Below are positions 17,212-41,868 of a stretch of DNA of 42,001 nt, piece by piece. The stretch's first letter is position 1. Each line of letters starts with the position of its first letter. The notes under the pieces are model-generated. The model ran no database searches. It saw nothing but the letters and a program-made list of their open reading frames with translations, and was not told the origin of the DNA. The position numbers were made by a program, and so were the translations under genes. The stretch spans positions 1 to 42,001 of the forward strand of contig JAQGDQ010001415.1 in assembly GCA_030141605.1 (NCBI GenBank), in the 5' to 3' direction. The stretch comes from Tubiluchus corallicola (taxonomy: Eukaryota; Animalia; Priapulida).

Positions 17212-20200
17212 TTATTTGTCTTTTCCAAGTTTAATGTCTTTATTTGTCTTTATCCTGTATTCCATACATTCGTTCACTAGATTTCTAATTTCTAGCAATC
17301 CTTCCTTTTCACTGTTCATTAATACTTCCGAGTTCAAAATTTTTTTCCATTCTCCATATCTGTAACATCTAAGCATATGTTCAGTAGTGTCATCATCTTC
17401 CTCACACACTGGGCATAATAACTGATCCTTAAACTCATTCTTGTAGTTCCCCTTAACTTTAATCATATTCAGTCTTATTTTCAATATATCTTTAACCTCT
17501 TCTGGCTTGCATGTGTCTATGTAATTTTGTCGTTTCCACTCGGTATGCCTTAAAAATCTTAATTTAGTGCTGCTCCTGCATTTTTCTGCACATTCGCTCT
17601 TTATACAACGTTCAATCTTATTCTTTATTTCTTTCTTCCATTCAGACTTTTTCATGACCTTCACCCTTTCTTTATTAGCATCTATGGTATATATTTTTGC
17701 AGTCTCAAATACTTCATTATACCATGACCTTTTGTGTACACTGTTTATTTGCATTTCGAGTATCTCTGATGCTAATCTCTTTGGTTTACTAATCAATAAA
17801 TTCCGATAGAACATCAATCTCTATAGTTTACTTTATGTTTTAGAGGCCATATGCCTATTTCAGTTACTAATCCCCAGTATGGCGTTGATTCACTAAGGTT
17901 AAATAATGTTTTTAAAGCATTTGCTTGAATCATTTCTAATTTCTCCCAATCAGTTGTTGTCAAATTTGACCATGTCTCAGAACTATTTAGCACTGCACTC
18001 ACTGAAAGAAGCTCGTACAGCATTAGTTTTACCCCTATTGAGCAATCTCCCACTTTCAGCTCACCTCCTATTGTATTGATGTAACTAATTATCATTTTGT
18101 TTTTCCCGGTTCGTTTTCCAAACATTATTTCATAACTACCTTTTGTATTTATCCAATCTCCCAAATATTGGTATTCCTCTACTTCCTTAACCTCTCCGTT
18201 CCTTAGTGACTCACATAATTCTGGGATCCTTTTCTTTCGTGTCATGTTAGTTCTCATATATTGTGTTTTCTGTATATTGAATGATAATCTTTTGGTTCTT
18301 TCAATTTCTTGACAGTTTTTAATCATCTGCTTGATTATAGTTTCTTGTCCTATTCCGACAATATCGTCAATGAATAATAACATACCCACATGTATATTTC
18401 TGCCCATTACAGTCCCTGTTGTCACCATCTCATTAATCCGGTTTATTGCAGCACAACATAGTAATGGTCCCAACACTGTTCCCTGTCGGACTATTTCATT
18501 TATTTCTATCTGGTCTGTTTTTCCCAATGGTGTTTCTATAACTATTTCTGCAATTTCATTCAGTTTATATATCATAAATATTTCTCCTGGTGATATGCCC
18601 ATCCTCCATAATTCTGTCAATGCATCTTTCAACCACAACTTATCAAAACACTTTTCTATGTCACAAAAAATTATGTACACTTCATTTTTATAAAACCTGT
18701 TGTACTCTAACATTGCCCTCAAGGTGTACAGATGGTCATAGACCCCTCTGTTTTTTCTTCCGCCACATTGATGTACTCCTATGTTTTCTTCAAATTTAAC
18801 TATTATTCTATTTTTGATCACTTTTTCCATTAGTTTACTGAAAATATTTGTTATGAACAGCCCCCGTCTATTTTTCATCTCTTTCTTGTCGCCTTTTCCC
18901 TTATAAATTGACTTTATTTTCATTTGGGCCCATTGTTTCGGTATTTTCTTTTGCTTCATTATTTCATTCAGCATTGCTGCTATACTATCAATAAATCCCT
19001 TCCCTGCTTGTTTGATCATTTCATTCTTCCATCCTTGCATGTCTGGAGCCTTTTTATTTTTTAGTGATCGAACTGCTTCATTCACTTCACTGTTAGTACT
19101 TTCTTTTACTTCCTCCTCACTTGCCATTTGTTCAACATGTTTGAAAATTTGTTCAACCCTTGATTCTATCATTTGCTCATATTCATCCTCTGTCTGAGTA
19201 GGAGTTAGCAATTCTTCATAATATTTTTTAAAAATCAACTTAATTTTTCCTGGATCCTCTTGGATCTCACCTTGTTTATCTCTCATTGCTATAGCTTCTT
19301 CCATTTTAGGTTTATCGATGCCCTTTTTGAATTCCCAAAACAACTGCTGGTTAAGTTTTCCATTTACTGTAATTGTCCTAACAGTTTTATTTATTCTATT
19401 TATTTGTTCCTTCCTTTGCACAACCCTCATCATGTTTTCTATTAGTTCAATTTTTATTTTTATCATTCTTTTCCTTTCCGAGTCTTCTTCATCGCTCATT
19501 TCCCGTTTTAACTTACGTCTTTCTTTATTTAGCTTCCTTGACATTTTACTTCCATATTTTTGTTTCCTTTTTCCTTTTACTGAAAGGCACCTGTCTCTTA
19601 CTACTGCAGCTTGATTTATCCAGCCATCATATTTGCTCTGAATTGATCTGTTACTGCTCCATACTTTACTAAATATTTGATCATCAGTTTCTTTTTTGTA
19701 TCTGTTCATTTTATTTTTATTAGACACTACTAATTTTTTTATCTCATCACTTTTATCTCTTTTCATTTTACTAATCTCAACCCAATCAAATTCACTATAT
19801 ATTGTGTTATGGTCTGTATATACAATTTTTTTCTCGCCACTACTAGTCACTCTGTACACTCCATACAGTTTTTGTTCATCAACAAGTGTGAACTTATGTG
19901 CATTTACATCATTTGCACTTATTATTATATAATCAATAACAGATTTTTTCCCAGCTTCTTTTCTTGTCCAAATTCCTGAGCATTCTTCAGTTGCATTTAA
20001 TATTACTAGTTTTTCTTTTTTAACCAGATTTAGTAACATTTTCCCTGCCCAAGTTATTTCATCACTATTACCTTCGATAATATTTCCTACTTTTGCATTG
20101 AAGTCCCCTATAAGCAAGCACTTCTGGTTTTCATTTTTTGCTTTTTGTACTTGCTTACGTATTTGTTCATACATTTTCTTCATTTCTTCTTTATCTGTCC

Positions 20201-20630
20201 TACTTTCCTGAGGTGCATACAATAATCCTACTCTCAATTTTACTTTTGAATTATCCATTACAACCCATAATTGTTCACCTACTTCATTATACTGATCAGC
20301 TTTTATTGTTACATTTTTTAAGTCATTTTTAATTGCCAATAATATCCCCCCTCCGTATTTATTTCTATTCAGTTGGAACACTTTGTAACCCTCAATTTGC
20401 ACTGATTCTTCTTCCCCCAAATGAGTTTCAACAATTCCTATTACACTAGGCTTTTTTTCCCTTATCACTCCATACAATGACTCTAGCTTATTATTTAGCC
20501 CTCGACAATTTGTATATACTACATTAAAATTTTTAAACTTCTTTTTCTTTTTCTGAGATCTTTTCACTCTTACTTTTTTTTCTAATTCCACAGTTTTTCT
20601 TTTATTGCATTGATTTCTCTCACTAAAAAA
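17212..20630 (-). CDS. LINE ORF2: AP endonuclease + reverse transcriptase + C-terminal CCHC-type finger; one frameshift at about 17818
   Basis: APE motifs (YTNCRGL, ETH, GDFN, SVIDY, TDHN); RT motifs (DIEKCFD, VRQGTVLGPLL, FIDD, YLG); C-terminal CPVC-x8-H-x3-C in ORF 17212..17817. The frame is open from 20630; the listed start at 20591 is GTG. Confidence 0.93.
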
Positions 20631-21895
20631 TTAATCTGCTCAACTAAACTTTCATTTTGTGTCTTTTGTTCATTTTTATTTGTTTCTAGAGTTGTCTGCT
20701 GTCCTTCTCGTTCTTGTGTTCGTAGGTATCTCTTTTCATCATCGTTAAAAAAATGTCTGTATCTGCACCTACTACCATATTTGCATTCACCATCATACTT
20801 GTAATTCCAACACAAATTTGTCTTTTCCTTATCCTCCCCAGGTTTCAAATAATGTCTAAACCTACACTTGCTTTCAAATTTGCAATATTTATTCCTTCCA
20901 AAATAGGAACACAACTTTTGTTCATATTCTCCTTGTTTGGCTCTATGTGCACTTTCACTGAGCTCTTGACACTCCTTTTTTGTTTTGTAGTGTCTAAACT
21001 TGCATCTGTTTTCAAATTTACACCACACATTTTTTGCAACATATCTGCATAGTGGCGTATCAGGCTCTGCCTCCTCTCTTTGACTCTGTGTTTCTTTTCT
21101 GGAATCATCTTCCTTCTTATTAGATTCATTGTTTTCTTTTTCCTCTTCATATGTTCCTCCCATACCCATTTTGCTCATCAACAATTCTTCATTTATCTTT
21201 TGTAGATCACTTATGTGCCTGTTTAGGCTATTTACTGTAGTTCTATTTTCCGCTGCCTCACTTATCAATTTTTCTAGTTGTTGTCTGAGTTGCACTGCTT
21301 CTTCTTTCAACTTTTTTATTTCACTTTCATATTTCTTTCTCTTTAAGTCAAACTCAGCCAATTGATCCGTTTTCTTATTCACTTCTTGCCTCATTTTCTC
21401 TAAGTCATCTTTCAAATTTTCTACTTCTCTTTCTTTGCATTTCATTTCCTCCTCTAGATTTCCTAATTGTACTTCATTCAACAGCTGTGTATTTTTTTGC
21501 ATTCCCATGCCTTCCTTTATCTTCTTGACTTCTTCTTCGCACTTATCGCAAAACCAGTGCAAAGTGTCATTTATAACTAATGCACTTGCTGTGCCTACCG
21601 CTTTATACGCTTTCTTTGACATGCCAATGCACTCTCTGTGCAGCCATTTCTCGCACCAGAAACAATACATTCCATCTTCCCCAATCTCCACTCTTTTTAC
21701 ACATTTACTGCACACTTCAGCCCCACTTATTTTCCTTTCCTTTCTTCCCTCTCCTTCATTCTCCTTTTGAGTTTTACTTTCTGACTTTTCTCCATTTTTC
21801 TCAGTTAAAGCTTCATCCACCACTTGCACAAAATCACACAATGCTCTTTCTATCCTGGTGCTCTGTATCATTTCTTCATCACGCTCCACTTCCAT
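20582..21895 (-). CDS. LINE ORF1: PHD finger, coiled coil, three C-x8-C-x5-C-x3-H zinc fingers (437 aa)
   Basis: CSKC...CFWCEKWLHREC...WFCDKC (PHD); E/K-rich heptads; CRYVAKNVWCKFENRCKFRH, CSYFGRNKYCKFESKCRFRH, CWNYKYDGECKYGSRCRYRH. Confidence 0.92.
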   Translation of the reverse strand: MEVERDEEMIQSTRIERALCDFVQVVDEALTEKNGEKSESKTQKENEGEGRKERKISGAEVCSKCVKRVEIGEDGMYCFWCEKWLHRECIGMSKKAYKAVGTASALVINDTLHWFCDKCEEEVKKIKEGMGMQKNTQLLNEVQLGNLEEEMKCKEREVENLKDDLEKMRQEVNKKTDQLAEFDLKRKKYESEIKKLKEEAVQLRQQLEKLISEAAENRTTVNSLNRHISDLQKINEELLMSKMGMGGTYEEEKENNESNKKEDDSRKETQSQREEAEPDTPLCRYVAKNVWCKFENRCKFRHYKTKKECQELSESAHRAKQGEYEQKLCSYFGRNKYCKFESKCRFRHYLKPGEDKEKTNLCWNYKYDGECKYGSRCRYRHFFNDDEKRYLRTQEREGQQTTLETNKNEQKTQNESLVEQINFLVREINAIKEKLWN

Positions 21896-23432
21896 TTTAT
21901 TACGTTGTTTAGTATGTTTAGTGAATTAGTGCACTATTATAGAGATGTTTGGGTAAATCCTTATATTGACTGTTTTTTATTATTTTTGTCTATTTTGTTT
22001 CATGCATGCAAACTAGTTTTACTTGACTACTTACCCCCCCTAAGAAAAAAAAAAATTAGTATATGATCTATGCTGCCTTTTGTCACCAAGCCACCGTGAC
22101 TCCTAAGTGTACTTCTTATTAGCTACTGCTGCATCCCTTTCACCAGTAGCACGGCTTGTCATTTTAGTCTTAAAAAACCTTAAGTTAGTAATTGTAATTA
22201 ATTTAACTGGTTCTATGAATTTGTAATAGTACTAATAGAATTGATTATACCTCAACTACTCTGATACTTTCCCTATCTCAAATTTGCCATGTTATACTTT
22301 TATGCGGTTAATAGGAAATTATTTCCAGTTTCTGTCTTTTAAAAAAGATCAGTTATATAAGACGAAGTTTCAGCTGTTATGCTGTTAGCTTCCCATTAAC
22401 GCCATCTTGATTTTTCAAATTCCACTTTTATTTTCAACTGTTCTCTAACAGAAGTTTGCACTTCCCAGACGTAATTATTTTTCACGCTATTTTTTTTCAC
22501 AAACACTCATATACACAATTTGAAAGTATTTAGTGGTATTTTAAATTCCTAAATCTCCGGATCACAAAAAACACGTCTTCACGATTTCCGCGCCAAACTT
22601 TGCTACGCTTACTTTTAACAAAAACGCAGACAAAAAGCTATTATTATACAAAAATTTTATAATAATATTTGGGCCTTATCTGTACTGAACATTCAGCGAC
22701 AAATCGCTATGAAGCTAACTGTCCCATATAATATTATAACAGGCAATATGGGCTATCTTGATTTGATAAAACTTTGCGAAGATTGCCTATGTTACAGCGG
22801 CATTTGGTCAACAACTGTTAGCTGCAGATAGGAGTGGCTCGAACTCTAATAAATGTTTAAACCCGGCGAATGTGCTTTGCCTAAAATACAGTCTAAATCT
22901 GTCACATCCTGCTTTCTAAATAATGCATAGAATTTTTAATATTGATAAAGTAAACAAGGAAGAGTGGAGAGGTTTATAAGCTATGTACGCTTAACCTCTA
23001 TCCTTCGACGGTAACGGTACCGGTAACATAGATAGCTGAGAAAACCTCCAACTTTTCTCGAATCAGCGAATATGAGATGCTTCGACTTGTTCAACGAAAG
23101 TTTGGAGTTGATCCAGTAAAGGAAAACTTTCAACTCGTAGAGCTTCCATCTCTGTCTGTTATTACTTGTCTCTGTTAATTCTTTGTAATGCTTCTTTAGC
23201 TCAGAGTTGTAAGTTTGTCCTTAAAGAACTTTGTATTTTTTCTACAGCTGCTGTATGTTTTACTGTTACTGAAAAGAGTTTAGAAAATTCATAAAATAAA
23301 CTCATTAGAAACTGTAGTATCACTTGCTTTACTGTTACTGAAAAGAGTTTAGAAAATTCATAAAATAAACTCATAAGTGCTTCATCAGCTGACGTTATGT
23401 ACCGTTATGTACCGCCTTGCCCTGCATTGTAA

Positions 23433-36972: not shown

Positions 36973-37639
36973 AAGAGCAGCTATGATCTTTATCTCTGCT
37001 ATTTAACAAAAAAGAATTAAGCAAATTACATACAAGTATTTCAAGTTTTGTCAGATTCCGTTATAAAGTGCAGCAATATTTAGGATAGATTTGACTGCAG
37101 TTTTCGTGCTTCTGGGACCTGGGGTACCCTCGTTATGACAGGGCTTTCGTTACTTCTAGATCGGGTTTTTTATATAAAATCACCCTAAACTGCAAGTGAG
37201 CCAAAATTTTGGTGTCTGACAGACAATGTCTATCCTTGCTGGTATCCTGTCTCGGAAGACAATGGAGTGTGCGCCAAGAGAGTCAGTTAGTAATCAAATT
37301 GATGGAGCGGCAGCGTCGACTGTGGCTGAGCCGTCCGATCCTTGAACAGCAGTTAGACAGTCGATAGCGCCCGAGCTCACGCGAATTTGCTCTAGGCTTA
37401 TAACTTGTAACTGCTGCCTTCCGTGTTGTTTCTGTCACTGGAGGAGTGCTACTGGAGTGGCCTCTGAAGAGCACACACCTGGGCAAGGTGTATGGAGATC
37501 CTGAGTTGCCCAGACAACAGGAACTCCCTCTTTTCCTCCCTGGTGTAGTCCAAAGGAAATCGGAGCGATACGTTTGGCACCAGGTTGACAAAGTCTATAT
37601 GAGCTAGATAATTATGTAGAATTATATTATGTGTAATTA

Positions 37640-37714
37640 TAACCTAGCCACTGGGGGGGGAGCAAGCCAGCCCAACTCAGTGCCGGTCCCAAGCCCGGAT
37701 AAATAGGGAGGGTT
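37640..37714 (+). ncRNA. Twister ribozyme (type P1 layout with P3) at the 5' end of an RTE element
   Basis: U37640-AA; P2 CCTA(37643-46)/TAGG(37704-07); GC(37647-48) pseudoknot with GC(37693-94); P3 ACTGGG/CTCAGT; P4 CCGG/CCGG around loop TCCCAAGC; ATAAA; GAGGG(37708-12) pairing with loop CCC. Core GCCGGTCCCAAGCCCGGATAAA matches the twister core as I recall it. Confidence 0.88.
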
Positions 37715-38202
37715 AGGGTCAGGAAGGGCATCCGCCTGTAAAAACTGCGCCAAAACCTTCTATGAATGAGATATCCACAAAGAAGTGGTCAGACCTGCTC
37801 TAATCTATGGGCTGGAAGCAGCTTCTCTAAAGAAGACCGAAGAGAAGAAAATGGATGTGGTGGAGACGAGGATGTTGAGATGGATGCTGGGAATAACGAG
37901 AAGAGATAAAATTAGAAATAATAATATCAGAGGAACAGTGAAAGTAGTGGAAGCCTCGCAAGATTGCGATGGTATGGACACTTGAAAAGAAGAGTCGGTG
38001 AAGATCATGTGGGAAGGGAGGTCATGGAAATGGAAGTGCTGGAAAATAGAAGAAGAGGACGACCCAAGCGGAGATGGCTTGAATGTATTAATGGAGACCG
38101 TAGAGAGAAGAACATAAATGAAGAGATGGTCAACAATAGGAATGGAGAAGACTCATTCACAACGGCGACCCCGCATAGGGAAAAGCTGGGAAGAAGAAGA
38201 AG
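37641..38202 (+). mobile_element. Bipartite (internally deleted) non-autonomous RTE element
   Basis: 17-bp TSD ATATTATGTGTAATTAT (37624-40 and 38203-19), (AAG)n tail, RTE-type 5'UTR (GTCAGGAAGGGCATCC) joined at about 37780 to the ORF C-terminus (VRPALIYGLE...RMLRWMLG...RWYGHLKRR...RGRPKRRW). Confidence 0.92.
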
Positions 38203-38416
38203 ATATTATGTGTAATTATCCAGCTAATTTGGTCTTTGTCAGTCGAACACAACCAGGATAAAGATAATATCTGGCCACTGGCATTGGCTGTGAATTGTTT
38301 TTCGTCATTTTTATCAAGTTTCTTACTTTAAACCACGGGGGCTGGCAGTAGATTTTGAACATCTCTAGTCTAGTATCACGAAACGGATAATCGGTTAATT
38401 TGTTAGTTTATATGAG

Positions 38417-39046: not shown

Positions 39047-39860
39047 TAGAAGTATTTGGTTCATAGTTCAGGAAAACTTTTCCTCATTAGAAGTATTTGG
39101 TTCACATTTCAGGAAAACTTTTCCTCATTAGAAGTATTTGGTTCATATTTCAGGAAACCTTTTCCTCATTAGAAGTATTTGGTTCACATTTCAGGAAAAC
39201 TTTTCCTCGTTAGAAGCATTTGGTTCATATTTCAGGAAAACTTTTCCTCATTAGAAGTATTTGGTTCACATTTCAGGAAAACTTTTCCTCATTAGAAGTA
39301 TTTGGTTCATATTTCAGGAAAACTTTTCTTCATCAGAAGCATTTGGTTCATATTTCAGGAAAACTTTTCCTCATTAGAAGTGTTTGGTTCACATTTCAGG
39401 AAACCTTTCCTCATTAGAAGTATTTGGTTCATATTTCAGGAAAACTTTTCCTCATTAGAAGCATTTGGTTCACATTTCAGGAAAACTTTTCCTCATTAGA
39501 AGCATTTGGTTCACATTTCAGGAAAACTTTTCCTCATTAGAAGCATTTGGTTCAAATTTCAGGAAAACTTTTCCTCATTAGAACTATTTGGTTCATATTT
39601 CAGGAAAACTTTTCTTCATTAGAAGCATTTAGTTCACATTTCAGGAAAACTTTTCCTCATTAGAAGCATTTGGTTCAAATTTCAGGAAAACTTTTCCTCA
39701 TTAGAAGTATTTAGTTCATATTTCAGAAAAACTTTTCTCATTAGAAGCATTTGGTTCATATTTCAGGAAAACTTTTCCTCATTAGAAGCATTTGGCTCAT
39801 ATTTCCGGAAAACTTTTCCTCATTAGAAGCATTTGGTTCATATTTCAGGAAAACTTTTTC
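39047..39860. repeat. 41-bp minisatellite, about 20 copies
   Basis: Unit TAGAAGYATTTGGTTCAYATTTCAGGAAAACTTTTCCTCAT head-to-tail with no spacers. Confidence 0.98.
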
Positions 39861-40041: not shown

Positions 40042-41868
40042 ATGGGAAAGCTTAGAAACTTGGAAATTCATTTCTTAAACTGTGCTCAGCCAGCCCCGGT
40101 GTTTTATGCCGGGCAGACAATATCCGGGCAAATGGTGGTGGAACTCAGTGAACCAATGAAAATGAGAGGTAAGTAGTAGGGATACAATATCTCTGTGTCA
40201 TAGGGTTGCCATCTTTTCACAAATCAATACCAAGAATAAAGAAGCAGCCAGGGCTTCTGCTGGCAGCACTGTAAGCTTCCAAAAGTGGGCTATTCCACGG
40301 AGCACCGCACAGTGACGCATTTCCTGTATTTCAGACATTTTACGAGGTCTGTTTTGGAAATGAAAATCTTGATTTCAGACTCTTAAAAGTGTAAAACTTT
40401 CTTGAATTTTCTGTTACTGAGACCTGTAACCCTTGTGCACTCAAATAAGCTCAAGCAAAGTCTGCAAATCACCGAAGATTACTTGCACTACACTTGCTAC
40501 TGCAACTAAAATTGGCAAAAAGTGTAGGCGGGGTGAAAAGATGAAACTTTATAGCAGAATTAAACTTAATTTAATAAGTTTGCTGTTTTCTTAACAGAGA
40601 TTCTGCCATTTTTAACTTAACCTTGTGCAAAGTTACAATAGCATGAACATGCATATTTGTATTTTTCACTTAAACTTCTACTCGATGGTAAAAACCTGTA
40701 AATTTTGGAATTTTCCAAAAGTCCAAGCGAACTATGGATATATGGCTGAATTTCAGGAGACTCTGGAGTAATAGCAACCCTGCTGTGTCACTCCCTCATG
40801 CACACTTTCAATTTCAAGACTTGGTTCAGGAGGCGGAAGTCGATTTTTGAATCTCTTCAATGAATAGGCCCAGTTGGCCTGCAGAGCAGCTTACCAGTAA
40901 ATTTTCAATCAATGCAAGAATGATTCACACTTCACGTCCAACTTTTACATTTTTAACCACTTTTGGTCAAACAACGTAGATTTGAATTCCTGTTAAATTC
41001 GCTTTCCAATTACTGAAAATGCACTGTAAATTACATTCACATGCCAAGATTTTAGTTGCAAATACCTCTTTGCTAGACAAGGTCTTTGGTTTCTAAAATG
41101 AACTGTACATTTGTTGCAAGCAAATTTGCTCATTTTTTGGCAAATTGCCAACTATGAATAGGAAATTGGAATTGCAAACACAAAATGATTCAGCGCAAAC
41201 AGTATAACATCCGCTAGGAGGGTACATAATGATGCAAATAGCATTTCATATAAAACTGGTGTTTATCACCAGTTTATCGGTTTTGTTCAAATTTCAATTA
41301 CAATGCAAAAATTTTCAAATATTTATCTCTTAATTTTAATTTGAACATAATTTTATTATGCGATTTATGCCAGAAAGTTTTAACAACTTATACCCGCGCA
41401 CGCCTCGCTTAGTAAATTCAATAACTGTTAGTAAATTGATATAAACACAATATTTGCAGAATTATTAGTTACATTATGTGAGTAAAAATAAAATAAAAAC
41501 TTAATGGTACATAGTTATATGATTAGCCTGTAAAAATATCACTAAACATGAATCTTCGCTACATACATAAAATAGTTTCAATTATCATTATTTAAAGCGT
41601 TTAAATTCAGTTACAAATGTCTGCAGACAATCAAATATTTTACAATTATTTACGTAACTTAATTTTGAACTCTATATCTTTATCACTTATTTTAGTACTT
41701 GCATGACATTCTAATGTATAGGTATTCGAGTGAAATTTGAAGGATCGGCAAATGTAAGTTGGTCAGAGAGTCGATCTCGCACTCGCGATGGAAAAACTGA
41801 GCACTATACTGTTCACTACAGCAACCACGAAACATACTTTAAGCATGCAGTTACTGTGTATGGAAAAC
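40042..41868 (+). CDS. Alpha-arrestin (ARRDC-like) paralog 2, first two coding exons (continues beyond the window)
   Basis: Exon 40042-40168 MGKLRNLEIHFLNCAQPAPVFYAGQTISGQMVVELSEPMKMR (28/42 identical to paralog 1, same 127-nt length and phase); exon 41722-41868 GIRVKFEGSANVSWSE...YSNHETYF; GTAAGT donors. Confidence 0.93.
40201..40782. mobile_element. hAT (Tip100-like) MITE in intron 1 of arrestin 2
   Basis: TIRs TAGGGTTGCCA / TAGCAACCCTG; perfect 8-bp TSD CTGTGTCA (40193-200 and 40783-90). Confidence 0.88.

What the first reader, a model, noticed from the sequence alone, without database searches (positions are those of the whole stretch)
37640..37714. Twister ribozyme whose cleavage site is exactly the 5' end of a retro-insertion
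All twister elements (P2, P3, P4, both pseudoknots, GAGGG) are present. Twister cleaves U|A in the UAA of loop 1, and the insertion defined independently by the 17-bp TSD starts at that A (37641). The copied RNA was therefore apparently the 3' self-cleavage product, fully reverse transcribed. The TSD restores the U but gives only a poor 5' P1 strand, so activity of this copy depends on the flank. Twister association with RTE-clade elements is known (Schistosoma); I cannot tell whether this lineage's case is described.
Basis: partly seen in the sequence, partly recalled or inferred. Interest (0 to 1): 0.88.

Follow-up and report, generated by a model that had tools for sequence, protein, structure and literature searches.

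The report
Twister-headed mini retrotransposon copy
This 562-base insert is one copy of an abundant, shortened jumping element whose copies begin at the predicted cut site of a self-cutting "twister" RNA, which likely frees the element's RNA from host transcripts; the same trick is already published for a blood-fluke element, so this is a well-supported further example, not a new principle.

Summary
Rfam twister-P1 matches 37636-37716 (61.5 bits, E 1.2e-11, below the 67.2 curated cut-off); P2, P3, P4 and both pseudoknots pair fully, P1 only in 2 of 4 positions. An exact 17-bp duplication (37624-37640, 38203-38219) brackets a 562-bp insert that starts at A37641, the scissile A. The decisive check passed: contigs of other copies leave the element for unrelated flanks at 37640/37641 in two studies of this organism and in a second organism, and summed depth falls about 80-fold within ten bases upstream. 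The insert is not a full retrotransposon: a 121-nt 5' UTR and start codon are joined to the last ~135 codons of an RTE-like reverse-transcriptase ORF, a junction many contigs share, so it is a bipartite non-autonomous element. Unrelated twister-headed RTE-like families in metagenome contigs show the same 5' end. The mechanism is published for Schistosoma Perere-3 (Liu 2021) and announced for RTEs generally (de la Peña 2020); bipartite RTE derivatives are known (Kojima 2018). The restored U is not needed for cleavage according to Liu. Cleavage and transcription were not shown here. New member of a known kind; interest modest.

The parts
37624..37640 (+). left target-site duplication (17 bp); its last 5 bases supply the 5' P1 strand and the U before the cut
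   Evidence: exact repeat of 38203-38219, twice only in the window
37641..38202 (+). whole 562-bp insertion: bipartite, non-autonomous RTE-like retroelement copy
   Evidence: TSD; high summed contig depth across it against single-copy flank
37636..37716 (+). type-P1 twister ribozyme; predicted cut between U37640 and A37641; G37708 predicted general base
   Evidence: Rfam RF03160, 61.5 bits, E 1.2e-11; pairs listed; core letters 37641-37700 equal the family majority apart from G-run length
37717..37761 (+). rest of the RTE-like 5' UTR
   Evidence: 90% identical over insert positions 40-116 to the 5' UTR of the autonomous-type element in L044, whose ORF ATGs lie at +121/+126
37762..37773 (+). 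start codon (+122) and internal-deletion junction; this copy has 3 letters (37771-73) where many family contigs have 22
   Evidence: loose ends behind 37770 in 24, 12 and 14 contigs of X1, X2, X4, agreement 0.86-0.98; frame count
37773..38178 (+). frameshifted remnant of the C-terminal ~135 codons of an APE-RT ORF, stop at 38176-78
   Evidence: tblastn to P0009 residues 846-976, 70% and 53% identity, E 5e-30; alignment A1; three-frame translation
38179..38202 (+). short 3' UTR ending in a (GAA)4 tail (38190-38202)
   Evidence: sequence
38203..38219 (+). right target-site duplication

Best explanation
The insert is a copy of an abundant, internally deleted RTE-like retroelement whose copies start at the twister's predicted cut site, most likely because the ribozyme cuts the element's RNA out of longer host transcripts and that cut RNA is then copied back into the genome by the enzymes of an autonomous partner. 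Steps: (1) a copy is transcribed by read-through from a host promoter (inferred; no RNA data); (2) the twister folds, with P1's 5' strand borrowed from whatever flank the copy landed in, and cuts before the AA (inferred from fold and from Perere-3 assays); (3) the 5'-AA RNA keeps the 5' UTR and the 3' end that an RTE protein would recognise (anatomy shown, recognition inferred); (4) target-primed reverse transcription runs to the very 5' end and leaves a TSD abutting the AA (shown: TSD here, pile-up across copies); (5) each new copy gets a new, unselected P1 strand, so only some copies would be good sources. This copy has an intact core, a weak P1 and private frameshifts; whether it still cuts is unknown.
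For: Rfam hit and full pairing of P2-P4 and both pseudoknots. TSD ends at the base before the scissile A; contigs with unrelated upstream sequence leave the element before 37641 (X1 29, X3 8, X5 60) or before 37640 (13, 3, 58), consensus agreement 0.43-0.66, and X1 summed depth goes 177.5 (37596-37631), 234, 878, 13,940 (37640-43); no shared family sequence lies upstream. X3 is another study and X5 another organism. Family-level junction of 5' UTR to RT C-terminus. Independent lineages: of 108 twister-core matches in fetched loci, 21 have an RTE-like ORF starting within 500 nt downstream and 0 have one in the mirror position upstream; in one metagenome family 23 of 29 copies begin at the AA with 23 different flanks, 2 at one A, 1 with no A, 3 truncated further in, and none shares upstream sequence; L067 is a 166-bp bipartite copy with a 20-bp TSD reaching into the AA and L015 a 160-bp copy with a 15-bp TSD ending at the AA. 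8 of 9 loci tested hit twister-P1 at 54-66 bits, the ninth more weakly. P1 pairing over 41 junctions (80 of 164) is no better than slid flanks (65-90), as expected if P1's 5' strand is random target DNA. Liu et al. show cleavage, TSD position and P1 borrowing for Perere-3.
Against: No cleavage assay and no RNA evidence. The Rfam score is below the curated cut-off. Nested folding models never predict the twister fold (5.8 kcal/mol above the minimum even without flank, 7.8 with 40 nt of flank, where a flank hairpin takes the P2 5' strand), though they ignore pseudoknots. In organism B (X5) the largest loose-end groups lie at 37662/37663 (282 and 47 contigs) and their low-agreement consensus shows other letters instead of the AA before P2: possibly a sister subfamily with a different 5' end, unresolved. 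One search shows only the best rows (75 loose-end rows hidden). X1 may be the sample the window came from. RTE clade membership rests on anatomy, not on a tree with named references. No exact or near-exact TSD was found for 9 longer loci checked, perhaps because repeat contigs are collapsed or incomplete. 18 of 40 matches with 1 kb or more downstream have neither an RTE-like ORF nor the bacterial-looking P2.
Confidence: 0.85

Rival explanations
1. The family's 5' end is a transcription start site from an internal promoter that happens to coincide with the AA; the twister is an inherited relic that no longer cuts.
For: The element never carries its own 5' P1 strand; nested folding disfavours the twister fold; a possible sister subfamily in X5 lacks the AA.
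Against: The same end, at the AA, is seen in families with different P2 and P3 sequences; the catalytic core is unchanged across them; Perere-3 variants with random P1 and any base before the AA do cut.
Confidence: 0.08
2. This copy was a full-length RTE insertion that lost its middle afterwards, so no short RNA was ever mobilised; the ribozyme-made 5' end would still hold.
For: The exact junction of this copy (37771-73) is rare: summed depth about 350 against hundreds of thousands beside it.
Against: Dozens of contigs run from the 5' part through 37770 straight into the RT C-terminal motif, so the bipartite form is the amplified one and this copy's junction is a further 19-nt loss; no top loose end leads into an endonuclease start (583 rows hidden).
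Confidence: 0.05
3. The common 5' end is a reverse-transcription stop at a strong RNA structure (ordinary 5' truncation), not a cut.
For: 5' truncation is the rule for LINEs (established knowledge); 3 of 29 copies of the metagenome family are truncated inside P3.
Against: Stalling would leave ends on the 3' side of the structure and longer copies with shared upstream sequence; instead ends fall on the 5' side, at one base, and nothing shared lies upstream.
Confidence: 0.02

Closest known systems
Twister 'T-variant' ribozymes at the 5' end of Perere-3 (RTE clade), Schistosoma mansoni (Liu et al. 2021, PMC8501958)
   Same: Type-P1 twister, element starts with the AA after the cut, TSD abuts the cut site and forms the 5' P1 strand, short tandem tail, non-specific targets.
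   Different: Perere-3 is autonomous (single APE-RT ORF); this element keeps only the 5' UTR and the ORF's last ~135 codons. Tail GAA, not GTAA. A text search of that paper's main text found 'internal deletion' 0 times and 'non-autonomous' once, in the general introduction.
Truncated twisters at the 5' end of RTE-superfamily retrotransposons (one sentence in de la Peña et al. 2020, PMC7761336, cited there as in preparation)
   Same: States that truncated but active twisters are conserved at RTE 5' ends and likely process the RNA from upstream transcripts.
   Different: No data in the passages read; non-autonomous derivatives are not mentioned there.
R2 SIDEs, short internally deleted elements (Eickbush and Eickbush 2012, PMC3414825)
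   Same: 5' ribozyme joined to the 3' end of the parent element, mobilised in trans, no promoter head of its own.
   Different: R2 clade, site-specific in 28S rDNA; its ribozyme is HDV-like (PMC6765202), not twister.
Bipartite non-autonomous RTE elements such as Bov-A, RTESINE2, WALLSI3 (Kojima 2018, PMC5786205)
   Same: 5' and 3' parts of an RTE joined by internal deletion, keeping the parent's 5' end; the paper links this to 5' ribozymes.
   Different: The ribozyme work cited there is on HDV-like motifs; 'twister' occurs 0 times in its main text.

Membership tests
Type-P1 twister ribozyme (RF03160) | Covariance-model match over the whole model | tested here: met
   positions 1-68 of 68, E 1.2e-11
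Type-P1 twister ribozyme (RF03160) | Score at or above Rfam's gathering cut-off | tested here: not met
   61.5 against 67.2 bits; all 8 full RTE-borne relatives tested also fall short, 54-66 bits, as expected when P1 is flank-derived
Type-P1 twister ribozyme (RF03160) | P2, P3, P4, two pseudoknots, UAA and GAGGG | tested here: met
   pseudoknot register recalled
Type-P1 twister ribozyme (RF03160) | P1 helix of at least two pairs (Liu et al.) | tested here: inconclusive
   2 standard pairs of 4, not adjacent
Type-P1 twister ribozyme (RF03160) | Self-cleavage before the AA | not testable with these tools
   needs an assay
Perere-3-like twister-processed retroelements | TSD directly beside the cut site | tested here: met
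Perere-3-like twister-processed retroelements | Different flanks among copies, starting at the AA | tested here: met
   (X1, X3, X5); a possible sister subfamily in X5 is unresolved
Perere-3-like twister-processed retroelements | Intact single APE-RT ORF downstream | tested here: not met
   only the C-terminal ~135 codons, frameshifted; so it works like Perere-3 but is a non-autonomous derivative
RTE clade (parent element) | Single ORF with APE and RT, no ORF1 | tested here: met
   nearest full-length relatives P0009, P0012, P0017 are 987-1008 aa with PF03372 + PF00078 on 3.2-3.6 kb contigs; in twister-bearing loci the ORF follows the ribozyme directly
RTE clade (parent element) | Short tandem-repeat 3' tail | tested here: met
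   (GAA)4 at 38190-38202
RTE clade (parent element) | RT phylogeny groups with named RTE elements | not tested
   no hit named as an RTE element among the 120 listed or the cluster members, so no tree with references was built
Bipartite non-autonomous LINE (SIDE-like) | Parent's 5' end joined to parent's 3' end by internal deletion | tested here: met
Bipartite non-autonomous LINE (SIDE-like) | Amplified as such (junction shared by many copies, each with its own TSD) | tested here: inconclusive
   junction shared by 24/12/14 contigs of one sample; whole copies with TSDs could not be counted without a genome

The most novel reading that the evidence does not exclude
Twister-headed, promoterless mini-RTEs form an undescribed, widespread class of non-autonomous retroelements (a twister counterpart of R2 SIDEs) that arose separately in several eukaryote lineages: this family, its relative in organism B and the 166-bp L067 element. 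Their success would depend on landing where the flank rebuilds a working P1. As a bolder extra (about 0.1 on its own), the family form here keeps the start codon in frame with the RT C-terminal domain and could make a ~150-residue mini-protein.
Probability: 0.4. Interest if true: 0.5.

Novelty: new member of a known kind. Interest (0 to 1): 0.3.

Why it matters
It extends a mechanism shown experimentally in one parasite to another animal lineage and to a non-autonomous family, with genome-wide support that 5' ends sit at the cut site. Such families are natural libraries of one ribozyme with thousands of different P1 strands, useful for asking how the insertion site decides which copies stay mobile. 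It does not open a new principle.

Tried and rejected
No whole genome is held, so copies could not be counted or aligned one by one. No second copy in the window. No RNA holder listed; the one guessed RNA run X7 laid nothing, which says nothing on expression. Pattern scans that found nothing: viral contigs twice, metagenome contigs with the long pattern, protein scan of viral contigs. Pfam does not recognise the C-terminal remnants. Nested folding is uninformative for this pseudoknotted RNA; the P4 constraint was misplaced and was redone. 'Insertion restores the U on purpose': T before the AA is 15 of 23 in one family (local background 53%, p 0.16), 29 of 41 over all distinct junctions (background 47%, p 0.002, but related loci are included), at least 13 of 42 in X1 (no excess) and 58 of 118 in X5 (p 0.0002-0.03 depending on the assumed background): mixed, and not needed for cleavage, so not claimed. 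Host lineage could not be placed: the arrestin-like exon found no homologue. A sigma-70 scan is irrelevant for a eukaryote. Searches for earlier notes by sequence and by genome were empty. Literature: full-text searches listed no paper on twister-headed non-autonomous RTE derivatives; subscription papers, Repbase and Dfam entries, the original twister paper and all supplements were not seen, so this is weak evidence of absence.

Full report
Observation. A scan of the whole window against Rfam gave one strong hit, twister-P1 at 37636-37716 (61.5 bits, E 1.2e-11, gathering score 67.2). Read by coordinates, P2 (4 of 4), P3 (6 of 6), P4 (3 of 3) and the two pseudoknots (3 of 3, 2 of 2) pair, UAA lies at 37640-42 and GAGGG at 37708-12, while P1 has two standard pairs of four. 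The pseudoknot register and the role of G37708 are recalled from the structural literature; the cut before the AA is stated in PMC8501958. An exact 17-bp duplication (37624-37640, 38203-38219) brackets 562 bp that begin at A37641 and end in (GAA)4.

What the insert is. After the ribozyme come about 45 more bases of 5' UTR, 90% like the UTR of the autonomous-type element in L044, and an ATG at +122, where L044 has its ATGs at +121 and +126. Within a dozen bases the sequence jumps to the end of a reverse-transcriptase ORF: 37773-38146 aligns with residues 846-976 of the 987-residue P0009 (70% and 53%, E 5e-30), in three frames. The nearest full-length relatives are single ORFs of about 1000 residues with APE and RT domains on contigs of 3.2-3.6 kb; named relatives come from crustaceans, fish and plants. 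This is RTE-clade anatomy as Liu et al. describe it for Perere-3; no tree with named RTE references was made.

Family evidence in this organism. No genome is held, so public contigs were laid on the locus. Summed depth in X1 is hundreds of thousands across the insert against 174 in the right flank (the tool warns that this is no copy number). In X1, X2 and X4, which are one sample, 24, 12 and 14 contigs go on from 37770 with one 22-letter stretch that leads into the same RT motif, so the junction of 5' UTR to RT C-terminus is a family trait, and this copy has lost a further 19 bases there. By count, the family form puts the ATG in frame with the RT remnant and this copy does not. On the narrow stretch 37596-37700, loose ends with unrelated sequence lie before 37641 in 29 (X1), 8 (X3) and 60 (X5) contigs and before 37640 in 13, 3 and 58, with consensus agreement 0.43-0.66; 3 more in X3 lie before 37639. 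X1 depth is 177.5 up to 37631, then 234, 878 and 13,940 at 37640-43. X3 is a second study and X5 a second organism. Groups at 37653/54 (X1 17 and 5, X3 5) sit at the G run, whose length varies. Against a clean picture: in X5, 282 and 47 contigs are loose before 37662/63, with a low-agreement consensus that shows other letters in place of the AA; and 75 loose-end rows were not shown. From 37641 to 37700 this copy equals the family majority in X1 and X3 apart from G-run length.

Other lineages. A pattern for the twister core found 102 stretches in metagenome contigs and 4 in bacterial assemblies, 108 matches in all. 21 have an RTE-like ORF starting within 500 nt downstream, none in the mirror position; among the 40 with 1 kb or more downstream, 15 have one, 7 are of a bacterial-looking type and 18 are neither. 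In one family of 29 loci, 23 start at the AA with 23 different flanks whose pairwise identity (0.25-0.45 by position) matches chance (0.37); 2 keep one A, 1 none, 3 are truncated inside P3. L067 is a 166-bp element of 5' UTR plus 3' end and (GTT)n tail with a 20-bp TSD that includes the AA; L015 (160 bp, 15-bp TSD) and L099 (119 bp, 18-bp TSD, no AA) are 5' pieces. No TSD was found for 9 longer loci checked. Rfam confirms the twister at 54-66 bits in 8 of 9 loci tested. P1 pairing over 41 distinct junctions is at chance (80 of 164; slid controls 65-90).

Mechanism. Shown: fold, TSD, exact family 5' end, bipartite anatomy, random P1 strand. Inferred: read-through transcription, self-cleavage, mobilisation in trans by an RTE protein. 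The rivals (internal promoter with a relic ribozyme, deletion after insertion, RT stalling) together get about 0.15. For this copy, nested folding puts the twister arrangement 5.8 kcal/mol above the minimum without flank and 7.8 with it, but the model ignores pseudoknots, so activity stays open. Liu et al. report cleavage with any base before the AA, no cleavage for variants with fewer than two As, and rates that depend on P1; this copy has two As.

What is known. PMC8501958 (read: abstract, introduction, passages, section 18 part 1 of 2, sections 19 and 22) shows the same arrangement in Perere-3, TSD-derived P1 included. PMC7761336 (passages) announces truncated active twisters at RTE 5' ends in general. 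PMC3414825 (abstract) defines R2 SIDEs. PMC5786205 (passages) describes bipartite non-autonomous RTEs and links them to 5' ribozymes without naming twister. PMC6765202 (passages) reviews ribozymes in retrotransposons. PMC6007223 (abstract) describes RTE target-site preferences, not tested here. Searches listed no paper on a twister-headed non-autonomous RTE family; supplements, repeat databases and subscription papers were not seen. Two earlier notes of this scan report the same kind of element in other genomes; they are unchecked and add no support.

Verdict. Interest 0.3.

Noticed in passing
window 37234-37586: A second high-copy repeat 37 bases upstream of the left TSD, bracketed by a 12-bp duplication with one mismatch (37222-33, 37587-98). 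Family contigs continue past 37587 with shared sequence, so this copy is cut short at that end; likely a 5'-truncated retroelement on the minus strand. A likeness to Vingi/RTE-type short elements is recalled, not tested.
   Followed up: partly
run X5 laid on window 37662-37663: In organism B, 282 + 47 contigs diverge in P3 and their consensus shows a G-rich stretch instead of the AA before P2: possibly an amplified subfamily with a dead ribozyme or another 5' end.
   Followed up: no
window 17820-21925, minus strand: An apparently complete two-ORF LINE: ORF1 of 447 aa with CCCH zinc fingers and a weak PHD match, ORF2 of 937 aa with APE and RT.
   Followed up: partly
window 40042-40170: First coding exon of an arrestin-domain-like gene (weak Arrestin_N match), 1.8 kb downstream of the insert on the same strand.
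   Followed up: partly
window 39047-39858: Tandem array of a 41-bp unit, 19.9 copies, 93% matches.
   Followed up: no
L001, L002, L003: Short contigs in three bacterial genome assemblies carry a twister core, in L001 and L002 with RTE-like ORF pieces downstream: probably eukaryotic contamination.
   Followed up: partly
L015 and L099: Copies made of only the 5' 119-160 bases of an RTE-like element, yet with 15- and 18-bp TSDs: 3'-truncated insertions, perhaps from internal priming.
   Followed up: partly
junction sets: A possible excess of T just before the AA in X5 (58 of 118) and in the pooled metagenome junctions (29 of 41), not seen in X1 (13 of 42, a lower bound).
   Followed up: partly
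L004, L013, L021, L054 and related loci: Twisters with RTE-like 5' ends but no RTE-like ORF in 1-4 kb downstream: other non-autonomous families or settled solitary ribozymes.
   Followed up: no
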